From Raillietiella orientalis (taxonomy: Eukaryota), in NCBI GenBank assembly GCA_036172245.1, contig JAYWIR010000067.1, forward strand, positions 1-64,000: a stretch of 64,000 nt of DNA, written 5' to 3'. This document shows positions 24,046 to 64,000 of this stretch, in pieces. Below the pieces are notes generated by a model. The model ran no database searches. It had not been told where the DNA came from and saw only the letters and a program-made list of their open reading frames with translations. Position numbers and translations under genes: made by a program. Position 1 is the stretch's first letter. Each line of letters begins with the position of its first letter.

Positions 24046-24051
24046 TTTATT
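24046..24051 (-). promoter_or_regulatory. Candidate polyadenylation signal of GCSH
   Basis: AATAAA on the minus strand about 310 nt after the GCSH stop. Confidence 0.5.
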
Positions 24052-24364
24052 GCAAGGCGGAATGACGCCACGCAAACCTTGAAATGGCCTACGGCCCCAT
24101 ACTGTCATTAAGCCAAGCGCCGCACACAACTGCCCTACGCATCTCCACACATTCCCCAGTGAGTTGACTGAAAGAATGTGGTGCATTATTATTAGTATAT
24201 TTGATCCATGGAATGGAACACTGCAAACAGAAACTACTTTGTCCGGATTCCAGGGGAACAGGAATCCAACTTCCAGGTGAAAGTCCATCAAGCCACTGCA
24301 ACATACACTACTCTCCACCTGGAAGCCATTTTTTTTATGGGGTGGGGTGGGGGGATCGAATCAC

Positions 24365-24462
24365 CTAGTTGTCCCCGCACTTGAGAAAGGCATGGTACTG
24401 GTCTTCGGAGAGGAGGGCACTCAGTTCACTGGAGTCTTGCAACTGAAGTTTAAACAGCCATC
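24365..24462 (-). CDS. GCSH: GCSH exon 5 ([32 protein letters not shown])
   Basis: tttcag| acceptor, 98 nt to TAG. Confidence 0.92.
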
Positions 24463-27400
24463 CTGAAACCATGGACAGCATCAACAACAGTATAACGGTC
24501 TTCCAGCGAGCCACATGCAACCGTTCACTCCGCTTGCCTGTACTTTAGCTCAATAAACAAAAAGCCGAAAACCATTACACTCTGATGTCCCGCCTTGCCA
24601 GCAGGCAAACTCATCCGGCTTAAAGATATGCACACACACACAACCAAACGAATTATTTCCGTGGGCACTGCGTTGGGGCATTCGCGTTCACAAGTAGGCA
24701 ACTTCCGAAGGAAGAAGCATCCTGGATGCTCGCAAATCATCGCCAAGGGTTGTTGTTTGCCGGCGGTGTTCGATTTCCACGTAGTGAAACCGCGACCGAG
24801 TCGAAGCCTTCCCCGTCTCGACAAGGATTCCCCGCCTGCCCAATTCTTAGGCACTGTGACGCGGATGGTGCAGCTACAGCCAGTTACGGTTCAGATTTTC
24901 AACTACCGCCGAATACCACCGACAGCCATACCAAGCCTAAATCAACACCAAACTAAAATGGACACAATGCTTCCAATGCTCGTTGAGATGGAATGTTCTT
25001 TTTACATGATGTTCGTAAGTTTGGACAAAATACTCATGGTGGTATGCCCAATACAAAACTTCAGCATTAATAAAACCAACGGGTGTGTGTAGTATGAGTT
25101 GCCTACGCAAATACGTGGAACCATAGTGTGATATGCTTTGTAAAGCATATGCTCATTAAATACGCACATCTACAGAATACGTATATGAAATTAAGTGAAT
25201 GTACACCGTTGACAGCAGAAACAGGACCTTCAGTTCACATTCACTTTGCATTCACATGCTTTTAATTCATGCTTCTGATTCACCATGCTGAAAGTGCTGG
25301 CGAATGAAACAACTACAAAGACATCAAAATGGTTTTCTGCACTTGTCGGTTTATACAAACAAACCAGATGGTTGACTGGTTTATTTGTGATAAACCAGTT
25401 AGCAAAATAAATCAAAAAGAGACACTTCAGCCACATATTAAGTGGTTTGTATGAGACCATCAGTTCCATCAAACAAGGATTTTTTCTGTGCTCTGTAACA
25501 CGTGAGGTGACATGAGAATTTTCTTATATGCAGAGACACGAACTAATTGCATAAATCCCTCAACTCAATCAAAAAAAAACTTTCAGATGCACACAGTGGT
25601 GGGAAGTAGAGCAAAATTGGAAAACATTTGTTTATGACAGTATAAGTGCTCAAGTGCAACAAAAACAGTGAGTTGACTGCTTGGTGCCTTTTATAAAAAT
25701 TGGAATCTTGCTGATAAACTTCACTCACAAACTAAACCTGTAATGGCCATACCTTTTTCCATTGGAGAAGAATTTATCAAGTTAGGCACTTGTTCCAATG
25801 TAGAGTTAACTTCAAGTACAGTTCCTGATACTGGAGAATACAACTCACTGGCTGCCTTAACACTTTCTAAAGCTCCACATTCATCTACATACAATTACTT
25901 CAAAGTAACACTCAATAAAAATGCCTAAAGGTCATAAATAATGAAAAAAGATACAGGAACTGTCCATAAAGTATGTCACATTGGCAATAGTATTTTTCCA
26001 GTCATCTTTTATTAAATAATCGAACAAACTTCCTGAGAAACAAGAAGTTGCAGATTTTACTACTTTTAATTTGATTTTTGAGCAAGTTAATTCCCTTTCA
26101 TAAGGTTTTTTGCGACCTATCAAACAATTGTGATGAGCAGATAACCATTCAGAGGTTGCTCCCATTTGCTGAAAGCAATCTACAGTGAATGCAGCCAGCA
26201 GTCATCCTGCCTCCACTTTGTTAATTTCCTTCATAGTGCTCATGATGAAACTTCATCATTACAAGTCTGCATCCCTATTTGTTTATTTCACTAACATGGC
26301 ATGATAGTGTTTGCAAACCTAAGCATCTGGCACAATGGATCCAACCGACTGAAATTCCCTTTACATTTCATTTGCAACCTTGACCCAAACATTTTTATTT
26401 CCATGCCTTAATATCTCACTTAAATGTAAGCACACAAAAAGTGAAATGACAGCAAAAATGCTATGGAAACAAAATTGCTAAATGAAAAGGATGCTTAGAG
26501 CAAAGGATACTTTTTCTGAGTTCAACCAAGGACCACTCTGTAAGAGGGCATGTACAAGAAATTTATATAGGCAGTGATTTACAGCATTAAAGATGAAGAA
26601 AGCAGGAATTACGTTAGCATCATAATTTACATCAAGAAAGTTACATTGCATTAAATTGGTATCCTCATGTGTTTTGCCTTCCACAAATTAGCAATATTTT
26701 TTTCTTTTTTTTGAGTATTCAATTCATTCTTTTGATTATCATCATAATTCCGATCTTTCATGCTATTCTTAATATTCTTAATTCATGACATACTTTATGG
26801 ATGACTCCATGAATTTACTGAGGAAAACAAAGGTTAATAGTGATAATTTATCATCAATGATTATGACTTAGTTAAATGATTACCCATTTGATTATACTTA
26901 GTTCCTACTTCTGGTAATTGAATAAAAACAATTTCTCCAAGGGCTTCCTAAAAAACTGTTGTTGAAACAAAATTCAAACTCTTCAGAATTAAATAACATA
27001 TAAGCAACATGAGTTGTCATGTTTATGCAATCACACTTTTCTTGAGGCTTTGGCAGTCAAAATGTCAATATCATGTATTTAATTTCTAGAAATAAATAAC
27101 GGTATTCTATCAATTTCAAGTTTAGATTCCCTAAATTAAAGGATGCACGCTTGAAATCGAAGTAAAGCAAACTGTGAAAACATTTCAAATATTCAAAACG
27201 GTGGTATTAAAACCTAAGAAATTACAAACTCTCTGTTACAGGAATTGGGATGCTTCTTCATTACACAAGCATACTTGCACCAATTCCCATCTCCATACTT
27301 AGTACCTTCAAAATCCATTTTGTCTTGTTATCTGCATGGATGAATTAATTAAACCGAAAAACCAAATCTAGGGGTATGAGGCAATAAGATTTTGACAACT

Positions 27401-28044
27401 TGAGCACATAAACAAAACACAATTTTCCATTCTGAATCAGGAGACTTGGCATTAAAACTTGTGGGCATACAAATATACGGTCAACTTCGAGAGGATTTCT
27501 ACATACCTGCGCATGATTTGTGATTCCCACAGTGGCGATTTCGTTGCTCCGTTTAACCCATTCGTGTTTTTTCGTAAACTTCAGCTGCGCTTAAAATGAA
27601 AGACATTTCAATGAGTGCACATTTCATGCCGAATTATAATGGGCTCCAGATCGTGGAAACATTTCATCCGTTTCTGCCGAGGAACTTTCTGGTTCCAAGG
27701 CATTCTTCCCATGCGCCACCAAGCATTCGATTCGATCCCGACCCACGCCGATGGGCCTTTGTTTTCATTTATTTTCCGAAAGTGTGGCTCGGGCAGCCAG
27801 GTTTACCGGGATTTACCAACCCTCTGGGTACGTTTGTGAGGAAACCAACCCCGGTGCCACCATGATGGCAGGCAGAGCGATTGCGGCACTTCAAGCACGC
27901 CGAACTCAAACTCAAAAACCACTAACCAGTTGGACTCCCGCTCTGGCAATTTCTGATCTGCAAGACGTTTCGTTTGACGTGGGAGAGGGCAATCTTATTG
28001 AGGGCCAGCCTCACATTCACCAAACTGCACAAAGCATGAACCAT
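24365..28044 (-). CDS. GCSH: Glycine cleavage system H protein, mitochondrial, 164 aa. Exons: 28044-27927, 27589-27507, 26947-26884, 25884-25753, 24462-24365
   Basis: The 495-nt joined CDS reads [52 protein letters not shown] (lipoyl-lysine motif), [13 protein letters not shown]. All introns are GT-AG and phase-consistent. Confidence 0.95.
25753..25884 (-). CDS. GCSH: GCSH exon 4 ([21 protein letters not shown]...SPMEK)
   Basis: atgtag| acceptor, G|gtatgg donor, 132 nt; lipoyl-lysine motif. Confidence 0.95.
26884..26947 (-). CDS. GCSH: GCSH exon 3 ([21 protein letters not shown])
   Basis: ttttag| acceptor, G|gtaatc donor, 64 nt. Confidence 0.93.
27507..27589 (-). CDS. GCSH: GCSH exon 2 ([11 protein letters not shown]...GITNHAQ)
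   Basis: ttttaag| acceptor, CAG|gtatgt donor, 83 nt. Confidence 0.92.
27927..28044 (-). CDS. GCSH: GCSH exon 1, putative mitochondrial targeting peptide ([39 protein letters not shown])
   Basis: ATG-initiated, basic, no acidic residues; G|gttagt donor in phase 1 matches exon 2. Confidence 0.75.
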
Positions 28045-30254
28045 ACTTGAGGTCTTTGCTTGTCCCCTTCGTTCCTCGTTCCCTCACGGCGAGCCGAGAC
28101 CGAAGTCAGCCGTGATGGATTACCCCCCGGAATTTTCAGAATAAAATGAAAAAAAAAAAAAATTCGAAAAACAAGGAGAAATATATACACGGAAGTGCAA
28201 CACGAAGTACTACTTCGAGAAAAACTGTGTTTCCATGAACACAGGAATGTTTGCACTTTCTGACACGTCACTGATATATATATATATGTATATATCTAAT
28301 CAGTCAAGTTTTCATCTTTCCAGCTTGTCGAAGGAAGGGAAAGAAAGAAAACACACACACACTCAAGGAACAAAGGAGATGATGAAAATCGCAAGGAAGC
28401 ACCAGAACTCGAACTTTTCAAAATGTCTTAAAAGATTTTGGAATTCATTGGTACTTCACGATTCATTGGTACTTAACGTGGTAAGGACTTTCACCGTGGA
28501 AAACGTTTGATTTTTCCGTTATTGCCACCAGAGGTTTAGACAACGAAGGAAAAATGACCAAAAAATGTGCTCCCCAAGCTTTACGTGAGGCAAAACATCA
28601 CAATCTCCGGTCGACGACTGTAGCGCGTGCATTTCACATTCTCCCACCACAAATTAAGAACTGGGCAATCCGAATACGTGTTTGTTCCTCTTGGCTGCCT
28701 ACAAGCCAAATTATCGGGTTGAGAATGGGGACCAGACCAGCAAAATTATCGGGTTTTCTTCCTGAATTCCGATTATCTTCCTCCCTCCAAATGGAATCAT
28801 GACAAATCCATGAATTCGGTAATGATACAAACTTCTTTCATAATAATGAATCAGAAATTCCCTGCACAATAAAAACTTTATAAATCAAAAGGAACGGCAT
28901 CATCAAAACCTTGCAAACAGTTGTCTCCCTTGACGGCCATGTCATGCGCGCTTCAAATAACTACCAAGAGTTTTTTTTTTTTTATTGCTGCCTATCTGTA
29001 GATTATCCTTTCGTCTCTACAGGAAGTTGTAAGAGCAAGATTTAGAAATGGTTCCCAACTGCTTTGACGATATAATTGTTTCTGTTACACGTATTGCTTA
29101 AACACTGCAATTTATGGAACCACATTTATCCTATATCTTCAGACTTTTGTTTGCAAGAATAATCAAGAAGATCTGTAATAAAGCATACATTGCACTAATC
29201 GAAGAACCTGTATTCTTGGATGGTCCCTATTAAATAGGGTCTTCGAATCTTCTTCTGTCGTTTATTACTAAAAGATCCATGGTGTTTACTATTTTATTTC
29301 CACCTTATCGTTGAGGAACTTGTCTTCGAGCCCAACCTATTATTCATTCATTCATTTCATTCTTATATTGGAATGCATACTGAATCATAACAAATCTGAA
29401 ATTTATTTAATAAGCAGATAACTTAAGCTGCACATTTGATAACTTCCCCGGACTTTTCCCTAAAATTTTTCGTTTTGAAGAAGACGTTTTCATGTATTCG
29501 TTTATTTATCTTTTGCCATGCAGCATGTGCGTGCATTTGCGAATGGGGGGGGGGTGTCAGAAAAAAAAAAAAAGAAAACATGCACAAATGTAGTGGAGAC
29601 ACAGATTCTTGTTTACAAGTCAAGTTACCTCACCACCTAATTAATTCATGGTGCAAGATTAGCGGTTGGAAGGTGGCGGAGATTCTGCTTTTGTCTCCAT
29701 GCTCTGTCGTCGTTCCATGTAAACTTTCGGAGCAGTTTCTAGCAAAGTTTCGCTTCAAACTTGAGAAAGACAATGCCCATTCTGCTAGTCCTATCATCTT
29801 CGAGAGTCGACACCGCAGGCATTATCGGGATTCTCATTCGTGTGGGGACCGAACCGCTCTTCAGAGTGCTTGCTCGAACCCTGTGGTCCAATGCCTCCGG
29901 TGCTAAAAGCGACGAAAAAAGGTCACATGTTTCCAGTGTTCCTCCCTCGTTGCAGTCCTGAAATTTAGGAGTAGCTCCTCGATCCAAAGAACAGATTTTT
30001 GGTGACAGCCGCTGAACCTCAACTATCTCTCAGGTTTGAGGTCTCTCAACGTGCGGCGCTCTTCGCTGGTGCAAAGAAGCCAAGAGCTATTGGCCCTATT
30101 TGCACGACGACTTCCACGGATTCGAAAGGGACGTGGGTCGGAAATTCGAGGGTGGGTTACCCGACGAGCGCAACCGACAGTAGTTGTCCCGGAAGTCAGG
30201 TCCGGTTGAGCTCGTTTACGGGGGTTTTGCTAAGTGTTCCAGAACGGTTCGTCT

Positions 30255-33110: not shown

Positions 33111-36100
33111 CTGCACCGAAGGAGGCAGACGCGCATCACGAGGAGGATCAAGGGGACGAAGGGGGGGGAAGGGAGGAAGGGGGCGTGCGCGCTTACTCAG
33201 CATGGTGGTCGTAGGGGAATAGAAGGCGTCGTACTCGTCGCTCTTGACCCACAGGGGGAACTCCCTCTGTCGCACGATCGACTCGGACGGATCGCCGCTG
33301 TCTCGGTGCCACGGCAACACTCGCTGGACCTCGGCCTCGCTCTTTCCTGGGTCACGAACCGCTCGGTTTGGCGTAGGAGGAAAAGAAGAAGTAGGGAAGA
33401 TGAGATGGGCGTAGAAAGAGAGGAAGAAAACATGATGGACGAGGAGGAAGAAATCGAAGGAGACGAGGAAAAAAAAAGGAGAAAAAGGGAGGAAAAAAGA
33501 GAGAGGGAGGAGGCGGAGAGGAGGAAAAAGGGAAGGAAAGGAAGAGAGGGAAGAGGAAGAGGAGGAAGGACGAAGAGGAAGAGAAAGAGGAGGAAAGTAG
33601 GACGAAGGGAAGAGAAGGAGGAGGAAGAAGAAAGGAGAAGGAAGAGAGGAGGAGGAGGGCAGCAAGAACCATGGGAAGACGAAGTAAAAGAGAAAGAAGG
33701 GAAAGACAGGTAAGGGAAGAAGAAGAGATCGGGCTACCTTGGTCACCCGAGGCGTCCGCTTCCGAACTCATGTCGAACACCTGGTTGTCGTAGCCTCTGG
33801 GGCCTACAAGAGATGCGTTTCGGCGGGGCAGGATGGGGGAGGAAGCGAAGCGGCATACCTGCTTTCGCGGTGAACGAGATGCCCTCGTCCTCGCTGGTCC
33901 CCTGGCACTCCGCAGCCTCGCTGTCCATGTCGATGATGTGATCTGGAACGGAGAGGAGGAAACTGCCGGTTTCCCTGTCCTCGAGTGGCAGACATGGAGG
34001 AGAGAGGGGAAAGGCAGGCAGGGGATGGGGAGAAGACCCTACCGTTCTTGAACTGGATGTCGCTGCCGGACTTGGCCGTGGGCGTGAACTGAACCTTCTT
34101 GTCTCCGGAGGATGTACGCCCATTCTTCATGGGCGCGAAAGCCTGGGATCAGAATCAGAGATGAGGTCGAAACCGGGGTGCCATCCCCTCCTCTTCCCCC
34201 ATCTTGTTGTTTCCTTGCGCACCTTCGACGTGTTCTTTTTCCGGTGGTAGTGCCTTTGGCTGATGATGGCCCTGAGGTAGTGCTGCTTCATGCGCTCATT
34301 CTCCGCCAGGTTGAGGTCCTTGTCATCCACCGTGTGCCGCTTAAAGATCGAGTACTGGGGCCTCCGTGAGTGACCGGCCGTTCCATCTTCCGTCTCGGAA
34401 GGAGGAGGAAAAAGAGGGAGCACTGCCAACGGTGGTCGTTCCCTCTCGCCTCCCCTTCCTCCCCGGATTTCACCCTGTCTCCCCCTCTCCCATCCTCACC
34501 CTCCTGCTGTTGGTGGGTTTGAACATCTCGGTGTCCAGCAGGTGGTTGATCTTGGCGTCAGTAAAGTCCTTCTTGCTGGGGCTGTAGGCCAGCTCCGCCA
34601 AGTCGAGGTTCCAGTTGAGCCCTGCGTCGTACAAGGCGTCGCTGCTGCTCAGTCTGCGGAAGAGCGGCGAGTGGTGGTGAGGGAGGGTCGAGAGCGGAGG
34701 GTTGGTCGCTCACTCGTAGAGGCTGCGCTTCAGAGTCTCCAGGGACCTCAGATCCATAGTGCTGTCCAGGCGCTTGTTGCTCTCGACGTACTTCAGAGCG
34801 TCCTCCATCTGCAGCTTTGAGAAGGTTTCTATGATCTTCGGGTCCTGAATGCAGTGCTCCCTAAGGAGGATGCGGCGGATGTACCTCCGGTCGTAGTACT
34901 TGTACCTGCAAGACGAAACAAGAGGCAGAACGTGAGAAGGAAAGGAGGGCAAAGGTCAAGTGGGTCGGTCTCCGGGGTGGGTGGGGGGTGGAAGGGCGGC
35001 GGCTTACTTGTCGCGCAGGTAGAAGTTGCCCGTGTGACCCAGCAAGGATTCCATGGCTGCCATCATATGATCGAAGAACTGTAAGAGGAAACAAAAAAGA
35101 AAAACAGGCAGCTGCAGGAGGCAGCGAGACGGCGCGCTGCACCCGTCAAATGGAAGGGAGAGTGCCCACGGACCATCGTGGGGACGACGCGAAGGGAAGG
35201 GAACTTCGGGACGGAGTCCTGCAAACGCTCGCCGCCGCTACACCTTGGGCTGGCGGACCCGGGAGCCACGCCTTCCCTGGGAGGAGTTGCCACCATCGAC
35301 CGCTCCCAGGCCTGCATAGTCGAAAGGTCCGCTGGCGATGACGTCGCAAGGGGACAGAAGGTCGTATTCGTTGCTCATGACCCGCAGGGAGGGCTCCCTG
35401 TGCCGCGAGACTGACTCGGACTGATCGTCGCTGTCTCGGCGCCACGGCAATGCTCGCTGGACCTCGACCCGGTCAGGGACCACTCGGTCTGGCGTAGGAG
35501 GAGGAGGAGGAAGAGAGGTCGGAAAGACGAGATGGACGTAGAAAGAGGGGAGGAAGACATGACAGACGAGGAGGAAGAAGCGGAAGGAGACGAGGAAAAG
35601 AAAATGAAGGAGAAAAAGGGAGGAGGAGGAAGAAGACGAGGAAGGGACAAGGAGGGGGAAGGCAAGAGAACGAAATAACAGGAGCACATGATGAAGATGA
35701 AAGCGGAGAAGAAAAGAGGAGGAGGAAAAGACCTTTTCCTGGTTGTTGCTTTTCCCCTCCTCAGGCCACCATAGAGTTTCGGGCGTGTCGGGCTGGGCTG
35801 ACAGACAGGAGCTCAGGGAGAACCCGACCAACAGCACACCCGTAAGTCACGTAGACCTCAGGGGCACGTCGTGGTGATGACAGCCGCCGCAAATGGGCGG
35901 AGGAGTTGCCGCCCCCCATCGGGATTATCATGGCGGCGAGCTCGAGAGCAACGGCGCGCGGAGGTAGCCGACCATCCCTTTGCCTCGTGCCCTTCCTTAC
36001 CCTCTCGTGGATTCTTTCGTTCATAGTGAGGTTCCTGCTCACAGCCAGCTTCACGCCGAGGATGTGCACCAGAGGTTTGAGGGAGATCCCCTGGCAAAGG

Positions 36101-54100: not shown

Positions 54101-57100
54101 ATTCTTCCCTGGTCGCGACCGGTAGTTTTGCGTCCTTCCAGAAGAGGGCAATGCTTCCCGCGGACCTGATCTTCCCTGTCGGCGAGGCGTCTCCGGCGCG
54201 GATTACGGATAGGATTAGGATAGACTTTCGAGTCCGCGGAGGGTGTGAGTTCTGCTCGAGATGGCCGGAAGGTCTCCCCCGCGGAAGCGGTCTCTTCGGA
54301 GGGACCTCGAAGACTGTGACGTCCGGAGGACGTGCAGGAAAGCCGTTGCATACGGACCGAAGAGTGTTGGCGGCGGCTCCAAGGCCGACGGGCAGGCCAT
54401 CCCTTCTTCGTTCCACACCAGTTCGGTGGAAGAGCTGGGTCTGCCATCGTCCGAAGTTCCCTCGAGGGATCCCCACGGCCAGCCACTCGCCCGAGCGCCA
54501 TGTTTCGACGTTTCTTTGTTCTCTCGTCCCTTTATTGCTCCGCCGACAAAGGCCTTCCCGTTCTCCAGCGCGAGAGAAACTGGCGACTCCATAGCAACGC
54601 TCTTTTAACTGCTGACTGAGGTCGCGGGAAGACGAAGTGCAGCGCTTCCTTCTTTTTCCTTCGAGCCCTCGTTCAGAGAGAGAAAAGAAAGACTGCCTCG
54701 CGTTCGCAAGAATCGCGAGATTACGCTGCTACTGCTGCCGAGATCTCGGACCGTCAAACAGACCACCTGTTTGACGGTCAGCGGGTCTGCTTGCTCAATT
54801 TCTTTCTTCTTTCTTTCCATGGAAAAACACAGGAATAAGAAGTAGAAGAATAGGAGGAGGAGGAGGAAGAACAAGAAGAGGAACAAGAAGAAGAAAGGGA
54901 AAAAGAAGAGGAACAAGTATAGTGAGAAAGAGAAAAACAAGACCAAGAAGAAGAAGAAGAGAAACCTCATGCGTCTTTGAGAATCCGATTGTCTCACGTT
55001 GCGGGAAGACGAGGTGTAGAGCTTCCTTCCTCGAACCAAGAAAAGGAAACGCTTCAAGGTGGAAAGCCGAAAAAGGGCCCCCGCGATCGCAGATAACGCC
55101 GGGACTGGCGTTGGGCAGCAGCTTGTGTTCCAGGAGAGACACCGCTTGCCGGAGACCATCGGTCGCCGATTCCTCGTAGCCTCCGACGGTTCGTTCTCTC
55201 AGCCTCTCCCTGCACCCAACCTCGTGCGTTGAGATTTTTTCCCCGCGCCGGTTGCCAAAGCTTTTTGAGCTTCCGAAAGAAAAGGAGAAAACGGCCAGAA
55301 GAGACGCAACCTTCGGCTCAGAAGCGAAAATCAATCAGTGTCCGCGTTCCTGCCGAGAGCGTGGCTGCCCGGCTATCCTCATAAGCAGCAATCACCATGA
55401 CAGTGTGAACGCCTGTGCCTCCTAACGCCACGTGAAAGGAGACCTCGGAATGCCGTCCGGAAGTGTCGGAGACCGCAGCAAGCCGAAGGAGCACAGAGGC
55501 GGAAGGACCCCGGGACGGAATGTCCCTTTCAGCCTGAAGCGGTCGCCGGGGAGCGCTCCCGAGCGAGCCGTCCCCGCCATCCAGTTACGCGGGCGCCGAT
55601 TCCGTTCTCGGGTTCGCCAATCGGCTGTCATGGAGACCGTCGCTCCGCACGGGAAGATGCGCGAAAGCCTCCGCCGCCGCCCACGGGAGAGGACGGAGTG
55701 CTGAGCCGGCATCCCGGCACCGAGCGAGGGAGCCCAGCGAACCCGCCTCCTCGCGGTGGTGGAACGCGCCCGGTTCGCGGACGTCCACGGGAAGAGCGGA
55801 GGCCGGTGACCCGCTAGCTCCGCGCGCGCCAGGACCCTGGGCTCGCACACTGGAGGATGCGTCTGGAGCGAGGACCGGAAAGCAGACGGGGAAGGGCACC
55901 CGCTAGACCCACCGAGTCCGGAGACTCCGCGCCTGACCACCAAGGGGTGACCAGCGGCGCACGTAGGCTTTACTTCTGGCTGATCCGAGATTCGACGCGA
56001 TCTTCTGATGGTCAGCATCCGGAACCAACAGAAACACATACACACAAAGAAAATAAAGAAATTTGTACACGTGCGGGCGCAGCAGCAGCAGGACTGAAGG
56101 TGCACCACCCAGGGGCAACATGAGACCCCTCAAGAAGCTCTTCGGGGAGGAGGGGCGCTGCTGCTGCTGGCCGCAACTCCTTTTTGCCTGCGACCATCCG
56201 GAAGTGGAGAGGTCGTGAAGCACTGCAGTGAAGAACGAGGGCAGCAACCCCCGCGGCCCTCACCCAGTCCTTTCTTTCGTCACTTTCTCTCAGCGGAGGT
56301 GACCCGCGATCCGGAGTCACTCGGAAGAAGCTTTCCTGCGCTCGGTAGGGGAACCTTTGCGAAGAGACCAGGAAGGCGGTCCGGGGGTGGCCGCCCATCT
56401 CGCCAGCAGACATCCCTTTTTTCCCTTCAGGCGACTTCCTTCCGTCTCCCACGACGAGATTCTCCTCCGGGTGGGACCATTGCCTCCTCTTCGCGGAAAG
56501 ACCGCGTAGTCTGGAGATCGGCATCGCAACAGACGCGGCGCCGGTGCCACCTGCTCAGGAGGAGCTGACGTGCCAGCCGGGAGAAGACCTCTGCGTCGCG
56601 GGAGAACCCTCGGGACGATTCCCTCACGGCCCGTAAGCCGCGCACTCGGTGCTGCCCGCTTCCCCCACGCGGGTGTCACTGGACTCTACTGCTAAGCCTC
56701 CCCCGCAAAGGAACGCACCAGACTCCACGGCAGCGCGGGGAGGAGTTCGCGCGCCTTCACGGATCCAGAAGTTCGTCACCGCACGAGTCGATCCGACGGG
56801 CGCTTCGTCCAGGACTGCGCGGAGGGCGGAGGAGCATCTGGGATCCGCGCGGAAGTCGCACACAGGATGCGCAGCTCGGTCACGAGACAGGAAGGGAAGG
56901 AGCCCCAAGGTCGTTTCTCACGGCGCCGACCTGGACGGTCGACTGGCCGCCAGCAGCTTCGCGGGAGCAGGCGGGACTCCTGGAGAGAGGAAGGGAGGGG
57001 GAAGGAGAGAGTCTCCCGCTGTCGCCCGCGGTCGGTCCGCACGAGAGATGCGAGCACTGCCTGCCGGGCAGGCGGCGAATCGCGAGGACGCAAGACGGAC

Positions 57101-60100
57101 GAGGAGGAGGAAGGGGAGGAGGGCCGTGGCGGGCTCGCTGCGAAGCGGGAAAACCGGGTGAGTTCCTGCAGCGCCTTTCCTTCCTTCGTTGGTTTTCCGG
57201 GCGGCCTCCCTTCTTCGCCTCGTGGTGGCGCGACCGCGGCGCTCCCCGCCGCCTCGAGGTCAGTCGCGCGGGATGCGGGCGTCGCCAGGAGGAACCCAAC
57301 CTCTTTCTTGCGTTTCGAGAAAGTGGCCGGGCAGCAAGCGGAGGGCGAGGGCTCTGTGTCGGCACGGGGGGTCCCTTCAGGCACCGCGCGGTTGCTGGCC
57401 GATGTCCTCCGGCGGCTCGCCGTCGGGTCGGATCACGGCGGCAAGAAGGAAGCTCCAGGGGTTACGCGCACTCCCCGCTGTGGGCGGTCTTCCCTCCTCC
57501 TGTGACCTCGGGGTCCTCCTCTTCCGACGGTGACGACCCAGCTCTCAGTCAGCGAAAGATGGCCCGGCGGCTTCGCGAAAATGGCGCGCCTCGGGGGTGA
57601 GGTAAGCGAGGAGATGCCAGCCAGCAGCGGAAGGACGCGGAAGAGTCGGTTGGGATGCGGGACGCGCAGGGACCCCTAGCGAAGACCCACAGAACCGGCG
57701 TCGCGCCGATACCCACGCTCATGGAAGAGGCGAAGCTCCTCCTGCCGTCGCCTGGGCGACGGGCAAACGAAGGGGCCACGAGGCGGAGGAAGGCGCGGGT
57801 CGAGAGGGCATAGGAGGGGTGGGCTCTCGGCTGCGGAGGCAGAAGGCACGATGGCGCCTGGACTTTTTTTCTTCTTCTTCTCAGTCGAAGAAAGGGGGGG
57901 GGGTCAGAGGATGCGAGGAGAGGAGACCTTGGCCGCCTACGGGCGCGCACAATCCGGCAGGCGCGCTCTGCGAACTCCGGGAGAGATCTGGGATCTCTGC
58001 CGCGTGCTCCCCGCCTCCTCTTCCCTTGCTCCGAGCGGGGCCAGCAGGCAAGGCGCAGCCCCCAGAGAAATGTCCGAGAAAGGGGATGCTTGCGTGACCT
58101 CTCTTCGCACAGAGAGGCGATGGCCACGTCGACGGAGAGGAGCGGAAGAACCCGGGCTCGGGAAAGCGTCCCTTGCCCTTCATGGGCACTCGCCACGAGC
58201 GAACTCTGTTCGTTTCCGGAGAGTCTCTCTGAGATGAGGACCCGGCGGAAGCGCGGCAACCGAACGGCGCGAGCGAGAGGAGAGAGCGGTCATTCGACGG
58301 AGAGGACGGCTTGCGTGGCGGCTCACGGAGGGGACGACCCCTTCACACCTACCCTCACCTCTCGGGAAGAAAATGGACTTTCCTCCAACCAGGGAGCGCT
58401 GGACCAAAATCCAGCACCGGTGGCGGCGGCAACTCCGAGCGGGCGCGCGTCGCGGACGCTGGTCCGCCCTCGCGGAAGCTGACAGTCTCCCTGGTCCGCG
58501 TCGTTGTCATCACTACCCTGGGAGTGGACGAAGGAAACCACAATCCTTCGCCGCCGTTCCCACCATCTGTCCGCGTCGTTGTCGGCGCCGTCGCATGTCC
58601 CTGCATTCGCTGGCACAGCAACTGCCGTTGCCCTGATCTCCAAGACCACCGCTGCTCCTATCGTCACTAAGACCGCCGCCGCCTCTGGTGCGGTGAGATC
58701 TTAATGATAGTCATGAATCATGTCATCCATCGTTCCGGTGCCGCGAGCACCAGTCATGCACGTACTCGAGGCTCCAGTCGTTACTATCATCGTAAATTAT
58801 CAGCGCTATCGTTGCCATAACTGCAGCACATCGGCGCTGTTTTTGCTGACGTCATCTCTGCAGCCCTGGTCATGGCCACCATTATCGTCAAAGTCGCCGT
58901 CCTCATCGTCACCATTACGCATTACTGCCCATTACCAATGCTGCCATTTCCATAGATACACGACGAGCATTCTTGCCGTTACCATGCTCGCTGCTACCGC
59001 CGCCACCGCTTTCGCTGTTGCCAGAAGCACAGAATCCGTCACGAACGCCACCCTGCAACGCCGCGGCTGTCGCAATCCCTCTTCAGAGATCGCTGTTTCC
59101 AAGGAAACAGAAGGTGTACAATGTGAACTGGACCGTTTTCTGGACTCCTCGGGAAGAGGAGTACGATCAGGAAAATCTTAACAGCGAGAGGAGGGAAGGG
59201 GGGAGAGAGAACAGGTCTCGGCGTGACCAGTCGGAAGACGGATCAATGCTAAGGGACTTTCCCTGCTAGCCTCACCCAAAAAGTAGTCCCCTATGCCTCA
59301 CCTGCCTCACAAGAGATGGACCTGCCCATTCCGGAACGGCCCGAAGGAGGATGGACCCGCCCTTCTCCCCTTTCTCGCTGCCGGACGACGACCCAAGGAA
59401 GAGAACTGCTTTTTCCTTTCCTCCCATCTCTCCCCCTGGGAACGTGGAAGGCGGCGCCCGTGAGCGTTTACCGAGATGGGACAGTGGAGCGGTCCCGGAA
59501 GCGAACGCTGGCAGAAGGGCTCTCTTCTTTCGCCTCTTCGAGGCTGGCGGCAGAGAGAGGTGCAGAAGCGGCAGTCTCCGGCCGTAAGGGAGGTGCCACC
59601 AGTGCCGACGGAACCAACGGCAGCCTTGGCAACGCGGGGTTGGGAAAGAAGAGTAGGAGCATCAGAAGGAGAGGGGAGGAGGGGAAGAGGAAGAGGAGGA
59701 GGGAGGAAGGAAAGCAGGAAGAAGAAGAGGAGGCTCGCCGGAGAGGCGGAGACAGTAGCACGAGCGTCTCCCGGAGGGAGGTCGCGCCGATCGGCCCTCG
59801 GTCCAAGCGGACGGCCGCCCTTTGCGTCTCGAAGGCGTGGCGCGCCAGTTCACCCCCTCCCGACGTCGCCCCTCGGACCCTCTTAAATGGCTCACCACGG
59901 TCACGGCGTCGTTGAGCAGGCTCTCCCCGAAGACCACGATGTACAGCACTTCGTTGACCTGGATCTCCTCGAACATGGCCAGCACGGCCACCGGATCCAC
60001 CGCTGAGATGAGGGCGCCGAAGAGAAAGGTGGGCAGTAGCGACAGCTTCTGGCCGTACATGCCGGTCAGTCCGATGAGGTACAGGGACGTTCCTAGAGGA

Positions 60101-60403
60101 AGGGAGGGGTCGCGGTCGCCTTGTCCCAGGACTCGCGCTCACCGATGGTGAAGGTGTTCCAGATGGTGCCGACTACGGCCATCAAGAGGATGGTCCCCAG
60201 GTGGTCGAAGAACATCCGGTTGGGCATGAAGTAGCCGGCGTCCAGTATGATGGGCGGCAGCATGTAGATGAAGAAGGTCTCCGGGGTCAGAGGACCCACC
60301 CCCTCGCTCGTGTAGAACAGCAGAAGCCCCACGACGACTCCCACGACGATCAGCAGGCAGGACTCCGGGAAGATCTTCGACAGCCTCCCGGTCATGTGGA
60401 ACC
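32755..60403 (-). CDS. Nhe2: Na+/H+ exchanger (SLC9A/CPA1, plasma-membrane Nhe2/NHE1-3-like), spliced, 5'-incomplete. Exons: 60403-60143, 60092-59896, 47369-47113, 45750-45533, 36345-36143, 36090-36001, 35078-35008, 34905-34714, 34653-34500, 34354-34223, 34142-34043, 33942-33859, 33803-33738, 33346-33197, 33110-32755
   Basis: Joined exons give one 2531-nt open frame with NHE motifs [89 protein letters not shown] and a CHP-binding-like segment. All intron phases match; all introns are GT-AG except one GC-AG. Confidence 0.95.
33197..33346 (-). CDS. Nhe2: NHE exon ([15 protein letters not shown]...[22 protein letters not shown])
   Basis: acccag| acceptor (in-frame GAG alternative would start at 33361), A|gtaagc donor; LPW and EFPxW...EY...SP motifs recalled from arthropod Nhe2 tails. 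Confidence 0.82.
   Translation of the reverse strand, partial: ERARPRSSECCRGTETAAIRPSRSCDRGSSPCGSRATSTTPSIPLRPPC
33375..33730. repeat. Polypurine/polypyrimidine low-complexity tract filling an NHE intron
   Basis: Almost all G/A on the plus strand; related tracts at about 35495-35730, 54830-54965 and 59660-59735. Confidence 0.85.
33738..33803 (-). CDS. Nhe2: NHE exon ([22 protein letters not shown])
   Basis: ttgtag| acceptor after a 55-nt intron, G|gtagcc donor, 66 nt, frame-preserving. Confidence 0.72.
33859..33942 (-). CDS. Nhe2: NHE exon (DHIIDMDSE...[10 protein letters not shown])
   Basis: ttccag| acceptor, G|gtatgc donor, 84 nt, phase 1 to 1. Confidence 0.82.
34043..34142 (-). CDS. Nhe2: NHE exon (AFAPMKNG...KKVQF...QFKN)
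   Basis: tcccag| acceptor, G|gtaggg donor, 100 nt, phase 0 to 1. Confidence 0.8.
34223..34354 (-). CDS. Nhe2: NHE exon ([14 protein letters not shown]...HRKKNTSK)
   Basis: ccccag| acceptor (in-frame GAG alternative would start the exon at 34393), AAG|gtgcgc donor, 132 nt. Confidence 0.85.
34500..34653 (-). CDS. Nhe2: NHE exon (LSSSDALY...[26 protein letters not shown]...RR)
   Basis: ccgcag| acceptor, AGG|gtgagg donor, 154 nt; tail motif recalled from arthropod Nhe2. Confidence 0.88.
34714..34905 (-). CDS. Nhe2: NHE exon ([16 protein letters not shown]...KRSLYE)
   Basis: ttgcag| acceptor, GA|gtgagc donor, 192 nt, phase 2 to 2. Confidence 0.9.
35008..35078 (-). CDS. Nhe2: NHE exon ([24 protein letters not shown])
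   Basis: ttacag| acceptor, AA|gtaagc donor, 71 nt; resembles the NHE1 CHP-binding helix. Confidence 0.9.
35335..35625 (-). pseudogene. Diverged intronic copy of NHE exon 33346-33197 plus its upstream pyrimidine tract
   Basis: [35 protein letters not shown] versus [35 protein letters not shown] (23/35 identical); the flanking tract also aligns with about 33360-33495. Confidence 0.85.
36001..36090 (-). CDS. Nhe2: NHE exon ([13 protein letters not shown]...MNERIHER)
   Basis: ttgccag| acceptor, AGG|gtaagg donor, 90 nt. Confidence 0.93.
36143..36345 (-). CDS. Nhe2: NHE exon (VVILTGFAN...[10 protein letters not shown]...FFTVFVQ)
   Basis: ctctag| acceptor, CAG|gcaagg GC donor, 203 nt, phase 1 to 0. 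Confidence 0.93.
38200..38845 (-). mobile_element. SINE-like element copy inside an NHE intron
   Basis: Minus-strand head GGCGACCGTGTGGCTGCGGCCTCCG...GGGTACGAATCC; 3' block CAGGTGGCGTGGACAGCGTTAAG. Confidence 0.7.
45533..45750 (-). CDS. Nhe2: NHE exon ([11 protein letters not shown]...[10 protein letters not shown]...YRALG)
   Basis: ttgcag| acceptor, G|gtgggt donor, 218 nt, phase 2 to 1. Confidence 0.95.
47113..47369 (-). CDS. Nhe2: NHE exon (VLYHMFEV...[11 protein letters not shown])
   Basis: cttccag| acceptor, GC|gtaagt donor, 257 nt, phase 0 to 2. Confidence 0.95.
56976..57509. repeat. Left arm of a 534-bp inverted repeat (partner 60584-61117)
   Basis: Reverse complement of 60584-61117; both end pairs sum to 118093 (no net indel); supplied ORF translations are identical across the arms in several frames. 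Confidence 0.95.
59896..60092 (-). CDS. Nhe2: NHE exon (TSLYLIG...AVDPVAVLA...[12 protein letters not shown])
   Basis: ctctag| acceptor after a 50-nt intron, GTG|gtgagc donor, 197 nt; contains the ion-binding ND motif. Confidence 0.95.
60143..60403 (-). CDS. Nhe2: NHE exon ([18 protein letters not shown]...[10 protein letters not shown])
   Basis: cttccag| acceptor, G|gtgagc donor, 261 nt, phase 1 to 1; early transmembrane helices. Confidence 0.95.
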
Positions 60404-60583
60404 CTGGAAGAAGAGGCGGTCGGTTCGCAGCCGGGCAGGTGGCGCGTTGCCGGGACGACGGCAGGGGAGAGTAAAGGAGGGGCAGGAGACCCGTCAAGCC
60501 ACCGGTGTCCTCGTTTGTCGGAAGACCCCGCCACCCCGTTTGCCTTGCAGGCTCAGGTATCCTCAGCGACCCGGTGGGACCCT

Positions 60584-61117
60584 GAGGTCACAGGAGGAGG
60601 GAAGACCGCCCACAGCGGGGAGTGCGCGTAACCCCTGGAGCTTCCTTCTTGCCGCCGTGATCCGACCCGACGGCGAGCCGCCGGAGGACATCGGCCAGCA
60701 ACCGCGCGGTGCCTGAAGGGACCCCCCGTGCCGACACAGAGCCCTCGCCCTCCGCTTGCTGCCCGGCCACTTTCTCGAAACGCAAGAAAGAGGTTGGGTT
60801 CCTCCTGGCGACGCCCGCATCCCGCGCGACTGACCTCGAGGCGGCGGGGAGCGCCGCGGTCGCGCCACCACGAGGCGAAGAAGGGAGGCCGCCCGGAAAA
60901 CCAACGAAGGAAGGAAAGGCGCTGCAGGAACTCACCCGGTTTTCCCGCTTCGCAGCGAGCCCGCCACGGCCCTCCTCCCCTTCCTCCTCCTCGTCCGTCT
61001 TGCGTCCTCGCGATTCGCCGCCTGCCCGGCAGGCAGTGCTCGCATCTCTCGTGCGGACCGACCGCGGGCGACAGCGGGAGACTCTCTCCTTCCCCCTCCC
61101 TTCCTCTCTCCAGGAGT
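60584..61117. repeat. Right arm of a 534-bp inverted repeat (partner 56976-57509)
   Basis: As for the left arm; ends 180 nt upstream of the NHE acceptor at 60404. Confidence 0.95.
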
Positions 61118-64000
61118 AAGGGATTGCGTCCAAGAAGGGTTCCGCCTGCTCCAGCGGTCGTCCGGATGGGACGAACGGGAGACTTTGGACGGCAGAAAAA
61201 ATGGAGACCGCCGATGGGCAGAAGACACGAGGAAAGTGACGGTCCGAGAAGATAGAGACCTCGGAAGAAGAAGAAGAGCGAGAAGACGCCAGAAGAGGGC
61301 GGCGACGTGCCCTGAGGCGCTCGTCAAAGAGTGGGGCGACGCTCCAGGAATTTCGGAAGGCCCTAAGGCCCTCGCAGAAGCTCTCGTAGCACTGACGGCG
61401 GAGAGCAAGAGGGGTCGGAACAGCGTCTGCTCCTCCCTCCGCGGGTACGACGGGGGAACGGGAACGGCTGGCACCTTCGGGGTGACGAGAAGAAACCAAT
61501 CCGGTCCCACGGGAAGGGCCCTCACGGGACCGCTCGACCGGGAAAGGTGGCCCACGAAACCTCTTCACGAGATGCGAAGAGGGGGCGTTTGGGTACTGGC
61601 TGGCGGAAAGGAACGCCCCGGAGGGGGAAGAAGACGGGGGCTGTCTACTTTGAGGCGTTTAGTTCGTCGTCTCAGCAGGAGGGGCGGCGGCTGGCGTGCG
61701 CCCGTTCCTACTCCAAGGCCTCCGCAACCCCTTGGCCGCACAGGGAGGTTGGGCGGAGGATGGTTCCGTTCTTCGTCCAGGGAGCATCTCGAGAGAACAG
61801 GAAGCGGTTTCCCCGCGATAGAGCGGCCCTCAGGCACGCAGGGACGCCCTCAGGGTGTTTTCTCTCTTCTTTTTTTTCCTTTTTGCTTGCCCCCTTGCAG
61901 GATGGAGGATGGAGACGGGTAGACGCTTGCGAGGAACCTAGGGTGACGTTCCGCGTTCCTCTGCAACGTCATCGCCGAACACCTTGCAGGAGAACCAATG
62001 TAGGGTAGGAGCTAAACCTCCCACGGGGCCACCCCTCTCCGCCTCCTCCCCAACGCAGGAGAGACTGAAAGAAAACCTGTGGGAGAGGAAGAGACTCTCG
62101 TGATTTCCAAGCGGCAATCCGACCACCTCCAGGGGCTGCCCTGTTCCTTGGTGGCAACAGCAGAAGGGGCAGCATCAGGAACGGGGAAAGGACGGGAACC
62201 ACGAGAGACCGCTGCAGGGGCGGCTGAATAAATCCGCAGCGGCATTGACGACAAGACGCGCGAGGGTGACAAAAAAGTGGTGGGGAGGCTCCAGTAGTCG
62301 TCCACGCAAAACCTGGTGATGCTGCCACTCCTGCCGGCGGCCATCACCGCCGTACCTCTCTGCGCGGGAGGACTGCGAGATGATGGCGCTGTCGACCCGA
62401 CCCTAGCGGCTACCGCAGCCGTTCCCCGTGCCATCGTGCAATTCGTTCCTCCGCTGCCACATGGCGTTGCCTTTCCCTGTGGTCGTTTCCTTCGGCTCCA
62501 CCAGGAGCATCGGCCACTCCCCGCGTTTGAGTGGGCCGCGCGCCGCTGATTGGCTCGTTCAAAAATTTCGCAGCGAGGACTTCTAGGAGCTCTCTTAACT
62601 TCCTTTTCTTCCTCTCCCTTCCCGTCTGCTTCAAGGAGCTGGCACGTTCGGTCCAAGAGTCACGGGTGTGGAAGTGGACAGCTGGGATGGCGCGCTAGCT
62701 TCCGGGAGCGAAGAGGTCGGGTAGGTCTTCGCGACGAGGGGGCAAAAGAGTTTACAGACCTCCGACGGGTCGGCTGACGCCTTCACACTTCGGAACGCAA
62801 TCGCCACGTGCGCCGCCTTGCGCACGCGTACATCCGCTGCGTCCAAGCCACAACGATAAAAAGAAAAAGCGAGACAGATCAAAAACACGCACGCACACAG
62901 CAGCAACAACAACAGGAGAAAACGGGAACGAAAGAAAATAAAAAGTTTTCAGCAGCGAGCGCACGTGATAAGTCGTCATGGCGTGCCACCTCGCGTTCGT
63001 GATTGTACGCCGTGTTTGTGTGAGGGGCAACATCCGGTCGTCAAGGCGATGCGTGTCGCCTTGGTCATTCAGAAATTTGCCGCACGCGTTCCTGATCTTC
63101 CGCACACAATTTCCATGAAAGTCCCGCGGAAAAACAAACAAGCAAACAAACAAGAGGAAGGCACGGCAGCAAGAAATTCCACGCAAGCGTGAGAAATCGA
63201 GATGAAGCGACGGCGGCGGAGCAGCGGCAGTCGTTCGCCGCCAGTCCCATCGACGCGCGCCAACAACTGCACGTCGGACTGTCAGGCATGTGCCCACCGC
63301 CTGCGCGCCTTTCCCCTGCCACGGTGCCAGCAGGGTGGAGCCGCCTTCCTTCCCGTCAGGTAGTCAGAAAAGCACAGAGAGATGCGGCGAAGGCAACAGG
63401 AAGAGCGCAGTGAGCAAGAAGGATAAAAAGAGGCAGGCAATCTTCCTAACAGTTTCTCAGAAGCTCAGCCCAATCCCAGGTACATCCCCAAGGGGTAGCA
63501 GTTCCGTACCGACGCCACAGAAGGGACGCACTTTGGAAACGTTCCGAAGTCGGTCGTCCTGACCCCGGGAGGGAAAATGCGACCTCCGCCGAGGGAAGAA
63601 ATCTGGATAGCAACCGCTCTTCTGGTTCTCCTCCCACGCTTGCTCCTCTGCACGGGTTTGTCTCAATAGGGAGAGCTGACCCTTTCCCTGCTTCCACTGG
63701 CTGCCGAAGGGAAGGGAAAGAGATCAGCTGCCGTACTCTTCGGGAGTTTTGGGCTTCGCTGGAGGTAGCAGCAGAGAGGTGAAAGAGGAGGAGGGCGAGA
63801 AGCTCTGGGTTGTTGCTGCGACATCTTCCGTGCCATGAGTAGCACGCGATTCGTCTTGGGGGCCAGAAGCGTAAGCGCATATAGATTACCAATTACGAGA
63901 CGTGCCTCACGCTCTCACACTCGACATGCACACAAAGGGGTACGCAAAAATTCGGTAGACTCATAGCCTCTCGACAGCAGTGAGTGACCTGCAGCTGCAG

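What the first reader, a model, noticed from the sequence alone, without database searches (positions are those of the whole stretch)
56976..61117. Apparently perfect 534-bp inverted repeat bracketing two core NHE exons
Seen: 56976-57509 is the reverse complement of 60584-61117 with no net indel and no mismatch that I could find, while every other repeat in the window is clearly diverged. The 3074-bp spacer holds two NHE exons (261 and 197 nt, including the ND ion-binding helix). One arm ends 180 nt before the acceptor at 60404. The arms show no terminal repeats or target duplication and do not resemble the local SINE. Established: reverse-complementary intronic sequences flanking exons promote back-splicing and exon skipping, and form ADAR substrates. 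Inference: the pre-mRNA could fold a 534-bp duplex, giving a 458-nt circRNA (donor 59895 to acceptor 60404) or a frameshifting skip (phase 1 to 0). Recombination between the arms would invert both exons and inactivate the gene. Identity implies very recent origin, ongoing gene conversion, or an assembly artefact.
Basis: partly seen in the sequence, partly recalled or inferred. Interest (0 to 1): 0.75.

Follow-up and report, generated by a model that had tools for sequence, protein, structure and literature searches.

The report
Common inverted intron repeat, NHE gene
Two identical 534-base pieces of intron face each other around two exons of an arthropod sodium/proton exchanger gene, but this genome holds many such mirror pairs, so it is most likely an ordinary by-product of local DNA copying, and any effect on splicing is untested.

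Summary
The repeat is in the assembly: 56976-57509 is the exact reverse complement of 60584-61117 (0 of 534 differ; 541 nt with one mismatch). It has two copies in the 210-Mb genome and brackets exons 3-4 of an intact arthropod Nhe2/NHE3-type gene.

It is not special. Of 1.044 Mb examined, 7 loci have near-identical local inverted pairs, one only 10 kb upstream. Three of at least 300 nt lie in 670 kb picked blind (about 900 genome-wide, 95% CI 190-2750). The scan noted the same layout before in other genes of this genome. Across these pairs, differences are mostly transitions crowded near the arm ends. That fits real duplicates homogenised by arm-to-arm conversion better than an assembly artefact. 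For this arm alone, young versus converted cannot be decided.

A same-shaped repeat placed at random in this gene encloses an exon 27% of the time, so bracketing is weak evidence of function. The circle and skip arithmetic is right, but one arm lies 2.4 kb from its donor and no reads could be listed. Best reading: a passenger inverted duplication, possibly leaking some circular RNA (0.6). Artefact 0.15; selected RNA switch 0.12.

The parts
56976..57516 (.). Arm 1, in intron 4 of the NHE gene (downstream arm in the pre-mRNA); 56976-57509 is the perfect 534-nt core, 57510 the single mismatch, 57511-57516 six further matches; 69.5% G+C
60577..61117 (.). Arm 2, in intron 2 of the NHE gene (upstream arm in the pre-mRNA); ends 173 nt (541-nt arm) or 180 nt (534-nt core) before exon 3; carries one GTGAGT donor-like word at 60935 in the gene's sense, with no sign of use
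57517..60576 (.). Single-copy spacer of 3,060 nt holding exons 3 and 4 in the same orientation as the rest of the gene
60143..60403 (-). NHE (Nhe2/NHE3-type, Pfam PF00999) exon 3, 261 nt, phase 1 to 1
   Evidence: the exon 2-3 junction is preserved in a processed copy on contig C26
60093..60142 (-). 50-nt intron 3 between the two bracketed exons
59896..60092 (-). NHE exon 4, 197 nt, phase 1 to 0, ends in the [11 protein letters not shown] helix
47113..47369 (-). NHE exon 5 (257 nt), the acceptor that a skip of exons 3-4 would reach, 9.6 kb beyond arm 1

Best explanation
A real, local inverted duplication of about 540 nt of GC-rich intron, one of hundreds in this genome. It was most likely made by a replication or repair template switch that copied the stretch backwards about 3 kb away and then resumed (inferred). 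The arms are identical because the copy is young, or because nearby inverted copies in this genome correct each other by non-crossover gene conversion (suggested for the class, not shown for this arm). It is tolerated because both arms lie inside long introns and leave the splice signals free. The pre-mRNA can pair the arms only if intron 2 is still unspliced when arm 1 is transcribed 2.4 kb after exon 4. Some 458-nt circle and some frameshifted, probably degraded skip product may then form as by-products (inferred from known RCM biology), with no sign that selection built or keeps this.
For: SHOWN. (1) Two copies only. (2) Seven local inverted pairs of at least 100 nt and at least 95% identity in 1.044 Mb, including C67:70989-71474/78191-78680 ten kb upstream. 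Three of the four other pairs searched genome-wide are also two-copy (the fourth has 6 matches on one contig). (3) None of 461 cross-contig matches of at least 150 nt reaches 95%, so near-identity is a local phenomenon. (4) In the 5 pairs of at least 300 nt, 10 substitutions lie in the 300 nt that are 6-35 nt from an arm end, against 5 in 1,828 interior nt (p 5e-6). Five of 10 real edges carry such a mismatch, against 24 of 800 simulated sharp-edged copies. (5) Edge differences are transitions in 15 of 18 cases over 7 pairs, against 62 of 150 in the simulation, so they look like mutations in truly homologous DNA. (6) Local direct repeats at 87-98% identity show that few-hundred-base local copying is an old, continuing process here. 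(7) The chance of enclosing an exon is 27%. (8) The gene is intact and in one orientation. KNOWN: newborn C. elegans duplicates are often adjacent and inverted (PMC2728529, passages); template switching is a standard proposed source of local inverted duplications (PMC10766186, abstract and Introduction).
Against: No reads or outgroup, so neither the direction of copying nor the age is known. For this arm alone the single edge mismatch is not significant (3% of simulated edges show one). No decayed homology lies beyond the arms (scores 30 and 31 against shuffled means of 29 and 28), which gives no support to an old, converted repeat here. G+C contrast with its own flanks is only +2.6 and +6.7 points (73rd and 92nd percentile), so GC-biased conversion is not shown for this arm, and two other pairs (C12, C50) are AT-richer than their flanks. 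The 35-nt edge window and the identity cut-offs were chosen after seeing the data, and n is small. Imperfect microhomology at a switch point can also put mismatches at edges.
Confidence: 0.6

Rival explanations
1. Assembly or amplification artefact: a double fold-back chimera (for example from whole-genome amplification) or a consensus error wrote a second, inverted copy of the arm, or erased real differences between the arms.
For: The identity is perfect and the edges are sharp. Whole-genome amplification makes abundant inverted chimeric reads (8.8-30.9% in C. elegans samples, PMC10450198, passages). Published palindrome lists include mis-assemblies (PMC7953838, passages). How this genome was sequenced is unknown.
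Against: It needs two switches with no visible duplication at the return point (the 9-kb region is otherwise single-copy apart from short matches). The same paper reports that chimeras form at random, so they should be outvoted in a consensus; contigs here reach 12 Mb. Sister pairs differ by 0.5-4% with transition-rich and interior differences, which one individual's chimeras would not easily give. Differences fall off about 35 nt from the ends, not at short-read length, which argues against polishing collapse.
Confidence: 0.15
2. Selected RNA switch: the arms are kept because their duplex drives back-splicing of exons 3-4 into a 458-nt circle and/or frameshifting skips that tune NHE protein level.
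For: Both arms are intronic and flank the exons; arm 2 is 173-180 nt from the acceptor; the flanking introns are long (about 7.3 and 12.5 kb); the computed arm-arm duplex is -1354 kcal/mol. Deleting reverse-complementary matches abolished circles, and in zip-2 reduced skipping too, in C. elegans (PMC8330042, passages). Inverted repeats drive the Drosophila laccase2 circle (PMC4617980, passages). The circle would carry a 153-codon NHE fragment frame.
Against: 27% chance of bracketing. Arm 1 is 2,379 nt from the donor, whereas the laccase2 repeats lie within 607 nt upstream and 848 nt downstream of the exon (PMC4617980). About 100 nt of imperfect pairing suffices there, so selection on splicing would not need 534 nt of perfect identity. 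No Pfam domain at E 0.001 or better in 80 open frames tested from the spacers and arms of three sister pairs (one weak hit at 0.009; a weak test for small exons). A processed copy shows normal exon 2-3 splicing, though it may be older than the repeat.
Confidence: 0.12
3. Inversion relic or invertible cassette: a staggered-break inversion created the inverted copies and recombination between them restored, or still flips, exons 3-4.
For: Staggered breaks leave inverted duplications of unique DNA at 17 of 29 Drosophila inversion breakpoints, median 321 bp in D. yakuba (PMC1885836, passages), a size like this arm. Inversions between inverted repeats recur in humans (PMC3961182, passages).
Against: The exons are in the functional orientation, so this needs two events with a null allele in between. 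The recurrent human cases are described as mediated by large inverted repeats. The contig shows one orientation only, and no recombinase-site-like terminal motif is shared among the six pairs inspected (by eye).
Confidence: 0.1
4. The arms are two copies of a young transposable element, or the ends of a foldback or Pack-MULE-type element.
For: Both arms have sharp, shared ends. The genome search reports lower bounds for repeats.
Against: 2 matches of 2 candidates genome-wide. No terminal repeat or target duplication is visible. The enclosed exons are the gene's own, not captured copies. No Pfam hit in the two arm frames tested and no Rfam hit in the arms.
Confidence: 0.03

Closest known systems
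Reverse-complementary matches flanking circularised exons: Drosophila laccase2 and PlexA (PMC4617980), C. elegans zip-2 and others (PMC8330042)
   Same: [quoted passage not shown]
   Different: Here the arms are a two-copy unique sequence, perfect over 534 nt rather than 69-75% identical transposon copies; one arm is 2.4 kb away; no circle has been shown.
Local inverted duplications by template switching (FoSTeS/MMBIR/ODIRA; PMC10766186) and adjacent inverted newborn duplicates of C. elegans (PMC2728529)
   Same: A unique segment copied nearby in reverse orientation with a copy-neutral spacer and a possible short imperfect homology at one junction.
   Different: Small (0.5 kb), non-coding, and no ancestral allele is available to show the switch points.
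Conversion-maintained palindromes (primate Y; counted in parthenogenetic animals, PMC7953838)
   Same: Near-identical inverted arms around a single-copy spacer; sister pairs have homogenised cores and more diverged edges.
   Different: The arms are far shorter and carry no gene; conversion is inferred for the class, not shown for this arm.
Staggered-break inversion duplications in Drosophila (PMC1885836)
   Same: Inverted duplicate of unique DNA a few hundred bases long at both ends of a segment.
   Different: The enclosed segment is not inverted relative to the rest of the gene.

Membership tests
RCM-driven circRNA locus | Reverse-complementary sequences in both flanking introns | tested here: met
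RCM-driven circRNA locus | Canonical donor downstream of a canonical acceptor between the arms | tested here: met
   AG|GGTTCC at 60404/60403 and GTG|GTGAGC at 59896/59895
RCM-driven circRNA locus | Back-splice junction reads, RNase R resistance, loss on deleting one arm | not testable with these tools
   no run was listed
Conversion-maintained inverted repeat | Homogenised core with more diverged edges or decayed flanking homology | tested here: inconclusive
   met for the class; this arm has one edge mismatch and no flanking homology
Conversion-maintained inverted repeat | Arms closer to each other than to their orthologues in a relative | not testable with these tools
   the genome has no relatives in the collection
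Conversion-maintained inverted repeat | G+C raised in both arms over their flanks | tested here: inconclusive
   +2.6 and +6.7 points, 73rd and 92nd percentile
Transposon or foldback element | Dispersed copies | tested here: not met
   2 of 2 candidates, both local; the search gives lower bounds
Transposon or foldback element | Terminal repeats and target-site duplication | tested here: not met
   edge listings, (by eye)
Staggered-break inversion | Enclosed segment inverted against the ancestral order | tested here: not met
   exons 3-4 are on the same strand as exons 2 and 5 onward
Polymorphic inversion between inverted repeats | Both spacer orientations among molecules or individuals | not testable with these tools
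   no reads
Arthropod Nhe2/NHE3-type exchanger (PF00999) | Homology over the membrane domain, with exons in order and in frame | tested here: met

The most novel reading that the evidence does not exclude
This arthropod genome carries on the order of a thousand short, two-copy, conversion-maintained inverted repeats of unique sequence. They replace transposon pairs as a genome-wide source of exon-looping RNA duplexes, or of invertible exon cassettes, and the NHE pair is one working member that tunes exchanger output through circle formation and nonsense-decayed skipping. Inverted pairs seem to be held at higher identity than direct pairs: 6 of 6 against 2 of 9 loci at 96.5% or more (Fisher p 0.007; cut-off chosen after the fact and the focal pair included).
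Probability: 0.1. Interest if true: 0.65.

Novelty: new member of a known kind. Interest (0 to 1): 0.27.

Why it matters
As a single locus it matters little: it is one of many such pairs, and the layout is a known one. The genome-wide density is the better lead. If long reads confirm several near-identical unique-sequence inverted pairs per megabase, this animal would be a natural test of how inverted repeats are born and homogenised, and of whether intronic RNA duplexes that arise by accident are purged, tolerated or recruited for circular RNA.

Tried and rejected
Sequencing runs: none was listed for window 57510-64000, so no reads could be laid; this is no evidence either way.

Other checks that found nothing:
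- Decayed homology beyond the arms: none above shuffles.
- Arm as a structured RNA: folding z-score +0.75. Rfam gave 3 sub-threshold matches in 55-63 kb, all outside the arms.
- Arm as coding sequence: 0 Pfam families for the 2 arm frames tested. The 212-codon frame over arm 1 is rich in Arg, Gly and Glu and looks like a chance product of high G+C.
- Alternative first exon in arm 2: a GTGAGT word exists, but the nearby ATG frame reaches it in phase 2 while exon 3 needs phase 1 (read from the sequence).
- Flanks as an interrupted repeat, which would show which arm is the insertion: no dispersed match touches an arm edge.
- Exons inside sister spacers: 80 of the 137 frames listed were scanned; one weak hit. 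The C1 and C10 spacers were not scanned.
- GC-biased conversion for this arm: not significant.
- Earlier notes: nothing near this place or like this sequence.

Literature: 'Nhe2' with 'circRNA' gave 3 unrelated papers. Searches listed no paper describing an arthropod genome rich in short unique intronic inverted repeats; the library lacks most subscription papers. No supplements were read; circRNA tables in supplements could list Nhe2 orthologues.

Full report
OBSERVATION. The two arms are exact reverse complements over 534 nt (0 mismatches). Outward the match ends at once; inward one G/A difference is followed by six matches, so the alignment is 541 nt at 99.8%. All other window self-matches of 100 nt or more are at most 78% identical. 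A search of the whole 210-Mb, 491-contig genome returned the two arms only (2 of 2 candidates; the tool gives lower bounds for repeats). The window is the first 64 kb of a 507-kb contig, and the repeat lies 57 kb from that end.

THE GENE. The bracketed exons belong to an arthropod Nhe2/NHE3-type exchanger. The 120 listed relatives of exon 3 are 71-83% identical, and the named ones are from hexapods, crustaceans and a centipede. Eight homologues place all exons on the minus strand in order: exon 2 near contig position 67.7 kb, exons 3 and 4 at 60403-60143 and 60092-59896, exon 5 at 47369-47113, and further exons down to 33 kb. Arm 2 sits in intron 2 (about 7.3 kb), 173-180 nt before exon 3. Arm 1 sits in intron 4 (12.5 kb), 2,379 nt after exon 4 and 9.6 kb before exon 5. 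A processed, intron-less copy of exons 1-2-3 on contig C26 (88-94% identical, cut off 99 nt into exon 3) confirms the gene's 5' structure and ordinary exon 2-3 splicing at some time in the past. The circle would be 458 nt. A skip from exon 2 to exon 5 shifts the frame, and the first stop falls in exon 6 (codon 135 after the junction; exon 5 covers 86). The circle would hold a 153-codon frame ending just past the junction.

IS IT UNUSUAL HERE? No. I compared 99 held stretches all against all: 1.044 Mb, made of 364 kb of this contig, 10 kb of C26 and 670 kb in 15 blocks chosen blind on other contigs. Seven loci have local inverted pairs of at least 100 nt and at least 95% identity: this one; C67:70989/78191 (490 nt, 97.6%); C67:99426/99838 (128 nt, 96%); C1 (407 nt, 99.5%); C10 (407 nt, 99.0%); C12 (185 nt, 96.8%); and C50 (333 nt, 98.8%). 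Three of at least 300 nt fall in the 670 blind kb, that is 4.5 per Mb or about 900 in the genome (95% interval 190-2,750; blocks of 30-50 kb miss wider spacers). Of four sister pairs searched genome-wide, three are two-copy like this one and one has six matches on its own contig. None of the 461 cross-contig matches of at least 150 nt reaches 95%. Earlier notes of this scan describe the same layout in other genes of this genome (STAR/KH, DPP10-like, IA-2, BRSK, GAS2-like, pikachurin-like). I did not check those loci; they prompted the survey and are not counted as support.

REAL OR ARTEFACT, YOUNG OR CONVERTED? No run was listed, so reads could not decide. The class gives indirect evidence. 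In the five pairs of at least 300 nt, leaving out mismatches within 5 nt of an end, 10 substitutions lie in the 300 nt that are 6-35 nt from an end, and 5 lie in the 1,828 interior nt (p 5e-6). Five of ten edges carry such a mismatch (four of eight without the focal pair), against 24 of 800 edges of simulated sharp-edged copies run through the same BLAST settings. Edge differences are transitions in 15 of 18 cases over seven pairs, against 62 of 150 in the simulation. This is what a homologous edge that is corrected less often than the core looks like. Imperfect microhomology at a switch point could contribute. The 35-nt window was set after seeing the data. Among loci of at least 150 nt and at least 85% identity, 6 of 6 inverted but 2 of 9 direct loci reach 96.5% (p 0.007; post hoc, focal pair included). 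That could reflect conversion between inverted copies, or loss or collapse of identical direct copies. Against over-reading: this arm has just one edge mismatch, no decayed homology beyond its ends, and no significant G+C excess over its own flanks, although at 69.5% it is far above the 51.8% sample mean. Two of seven pairs are AT-richer than their flanks. Amplification chimeras are a documented source of inverted artefacts (PMC10450198, passages seen). However, this structure needs two switches, chimeras are reported there to form at random, and the sister pairs show divergence that one individual's chimeras would not readily give. I leave 0.15 for artefact.

DOES IT DO ANYTHING? The layout works like a reverse-complementary match (RCM) around exons. 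Such matches drive circles and, in some genes, skipping in C. elegans (PMC8330042, passages seen) and drive the laccase2 circle in Drosophila (PMC4617980, passages seen). The computed duplex is extremely stable (-1354 kcal/mol). But the layout is cheap. Sliding a repeat of this shape along the gene with both arms in introns encloses at least one exon in 6,109 of 22,656 placements (27%; exon limits partly approximate). In laccase2 the repeats lie within a few hundred bases of the exon, and about 100 nt of imperfect pairing suffices, so a splicing function would explain neither the 2.4-kb gap nor the perfect identity. By inference, pairing needs intron 2 to stay unspliced until arm 1 is transcribed; prompt co-transcriptional splicing (recalled, general knowledge) would remove arm 2 first and limit the yield. 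Crossing-over between the arms would flip exons 3-4 and give a null allele. The assembly shows the functional orientation. A staggered-break origin (PMC1885836, passages seen) would need a second, restoring inversion.

COMPARISON AND NOVELTY. It works like an RCM pair by layout, but membership as a circRNA locus is untested. By origin it is closest to local inverted duplications made by template switching (PMC10766186, abstract and Introduction seen; PMC2728529, passages seen). By upkeep it is closest to conversion-maintained palindromes (PMC7953838, passages seen). It failed the tests for a transposon and for a currently inverted segment. PMC3961182 (passages seen) ties recurrent inversion to large repeats. 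My searches listed no description of an arthropod genome with this density of short unique inverted pairs, but the library is incomplete and no supplements were read.

VERDICT. Observation confirmed; interpretation possible but unproven and less special than it looked. New member of a known kind, interest 0.27. The open lead is the genome-wide class, not this locus.

Noticed in passing
G000:C26:397324-397912 (L073:4324-4912): Processed, intron-less copy of the 5' end of the NHE transcript (exon 1, exon 2 with an internal deletion, first 99 nt of exon 3; 88-94% identical). It keeps the 5' end and lacks the 3' end, the reverse of the usual 5'-truncated retrocopy (recalled).
   Followed up: partly
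G000:C67:70989-71474 and 78191-78680 (L003:6989-7474, L004:4191-4680): Second two-copy inverted repeat just upstream of the NHE start: 490 nt, 97.6%, 69% G+C, ragged outer edge; the left copy abuts DNA of 48% G+C. No Pfam hit in the spacer frames tested.
   Followed up: partly
L003:4300-4375 (contig 68.30-68.38 kb), minus strand: TATA-like (CTATAAAAGG) and CCAAT-like words just upstream of where the processed copy begins: probable NHE promoter, read by eye.
   Followed up: no
G000:C10:333332-348755, also 871470 and 890501: A 407-nt segment of 62% G+C set in flanks of 41-45%, with six matches on this one contig in both orientations at 78-100% identity; possibly a converting gene-family piece.
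   Followed up: partly
window 33208-33596 and 35343-35728: Diverged direct duplication (404 nt, 74%) inside the NHE gene that includes a copy of a C-terminal coding motif (LPW.RDS), suggesting a duplicated or alternative 3' exon.
   Followed up: no
G000:C67:242314-243690 and 300398-301773: Near-identical direct pair (1,377 nt, 99.6%) 57 kb apart, with an 86% relative on contig C50: a repeat family whose two local copies are far closer to each other than to the distant one.
   Followed up: no
window 24001-30000 and contig C67 about 214-234 kb and 324-364 kb: Sharp AT-rich blocks (36-43% G+C) inside DNA of 55-65% G+C; CpG is not depleted in the window (observed/expected 0.96).
   Followed up: no
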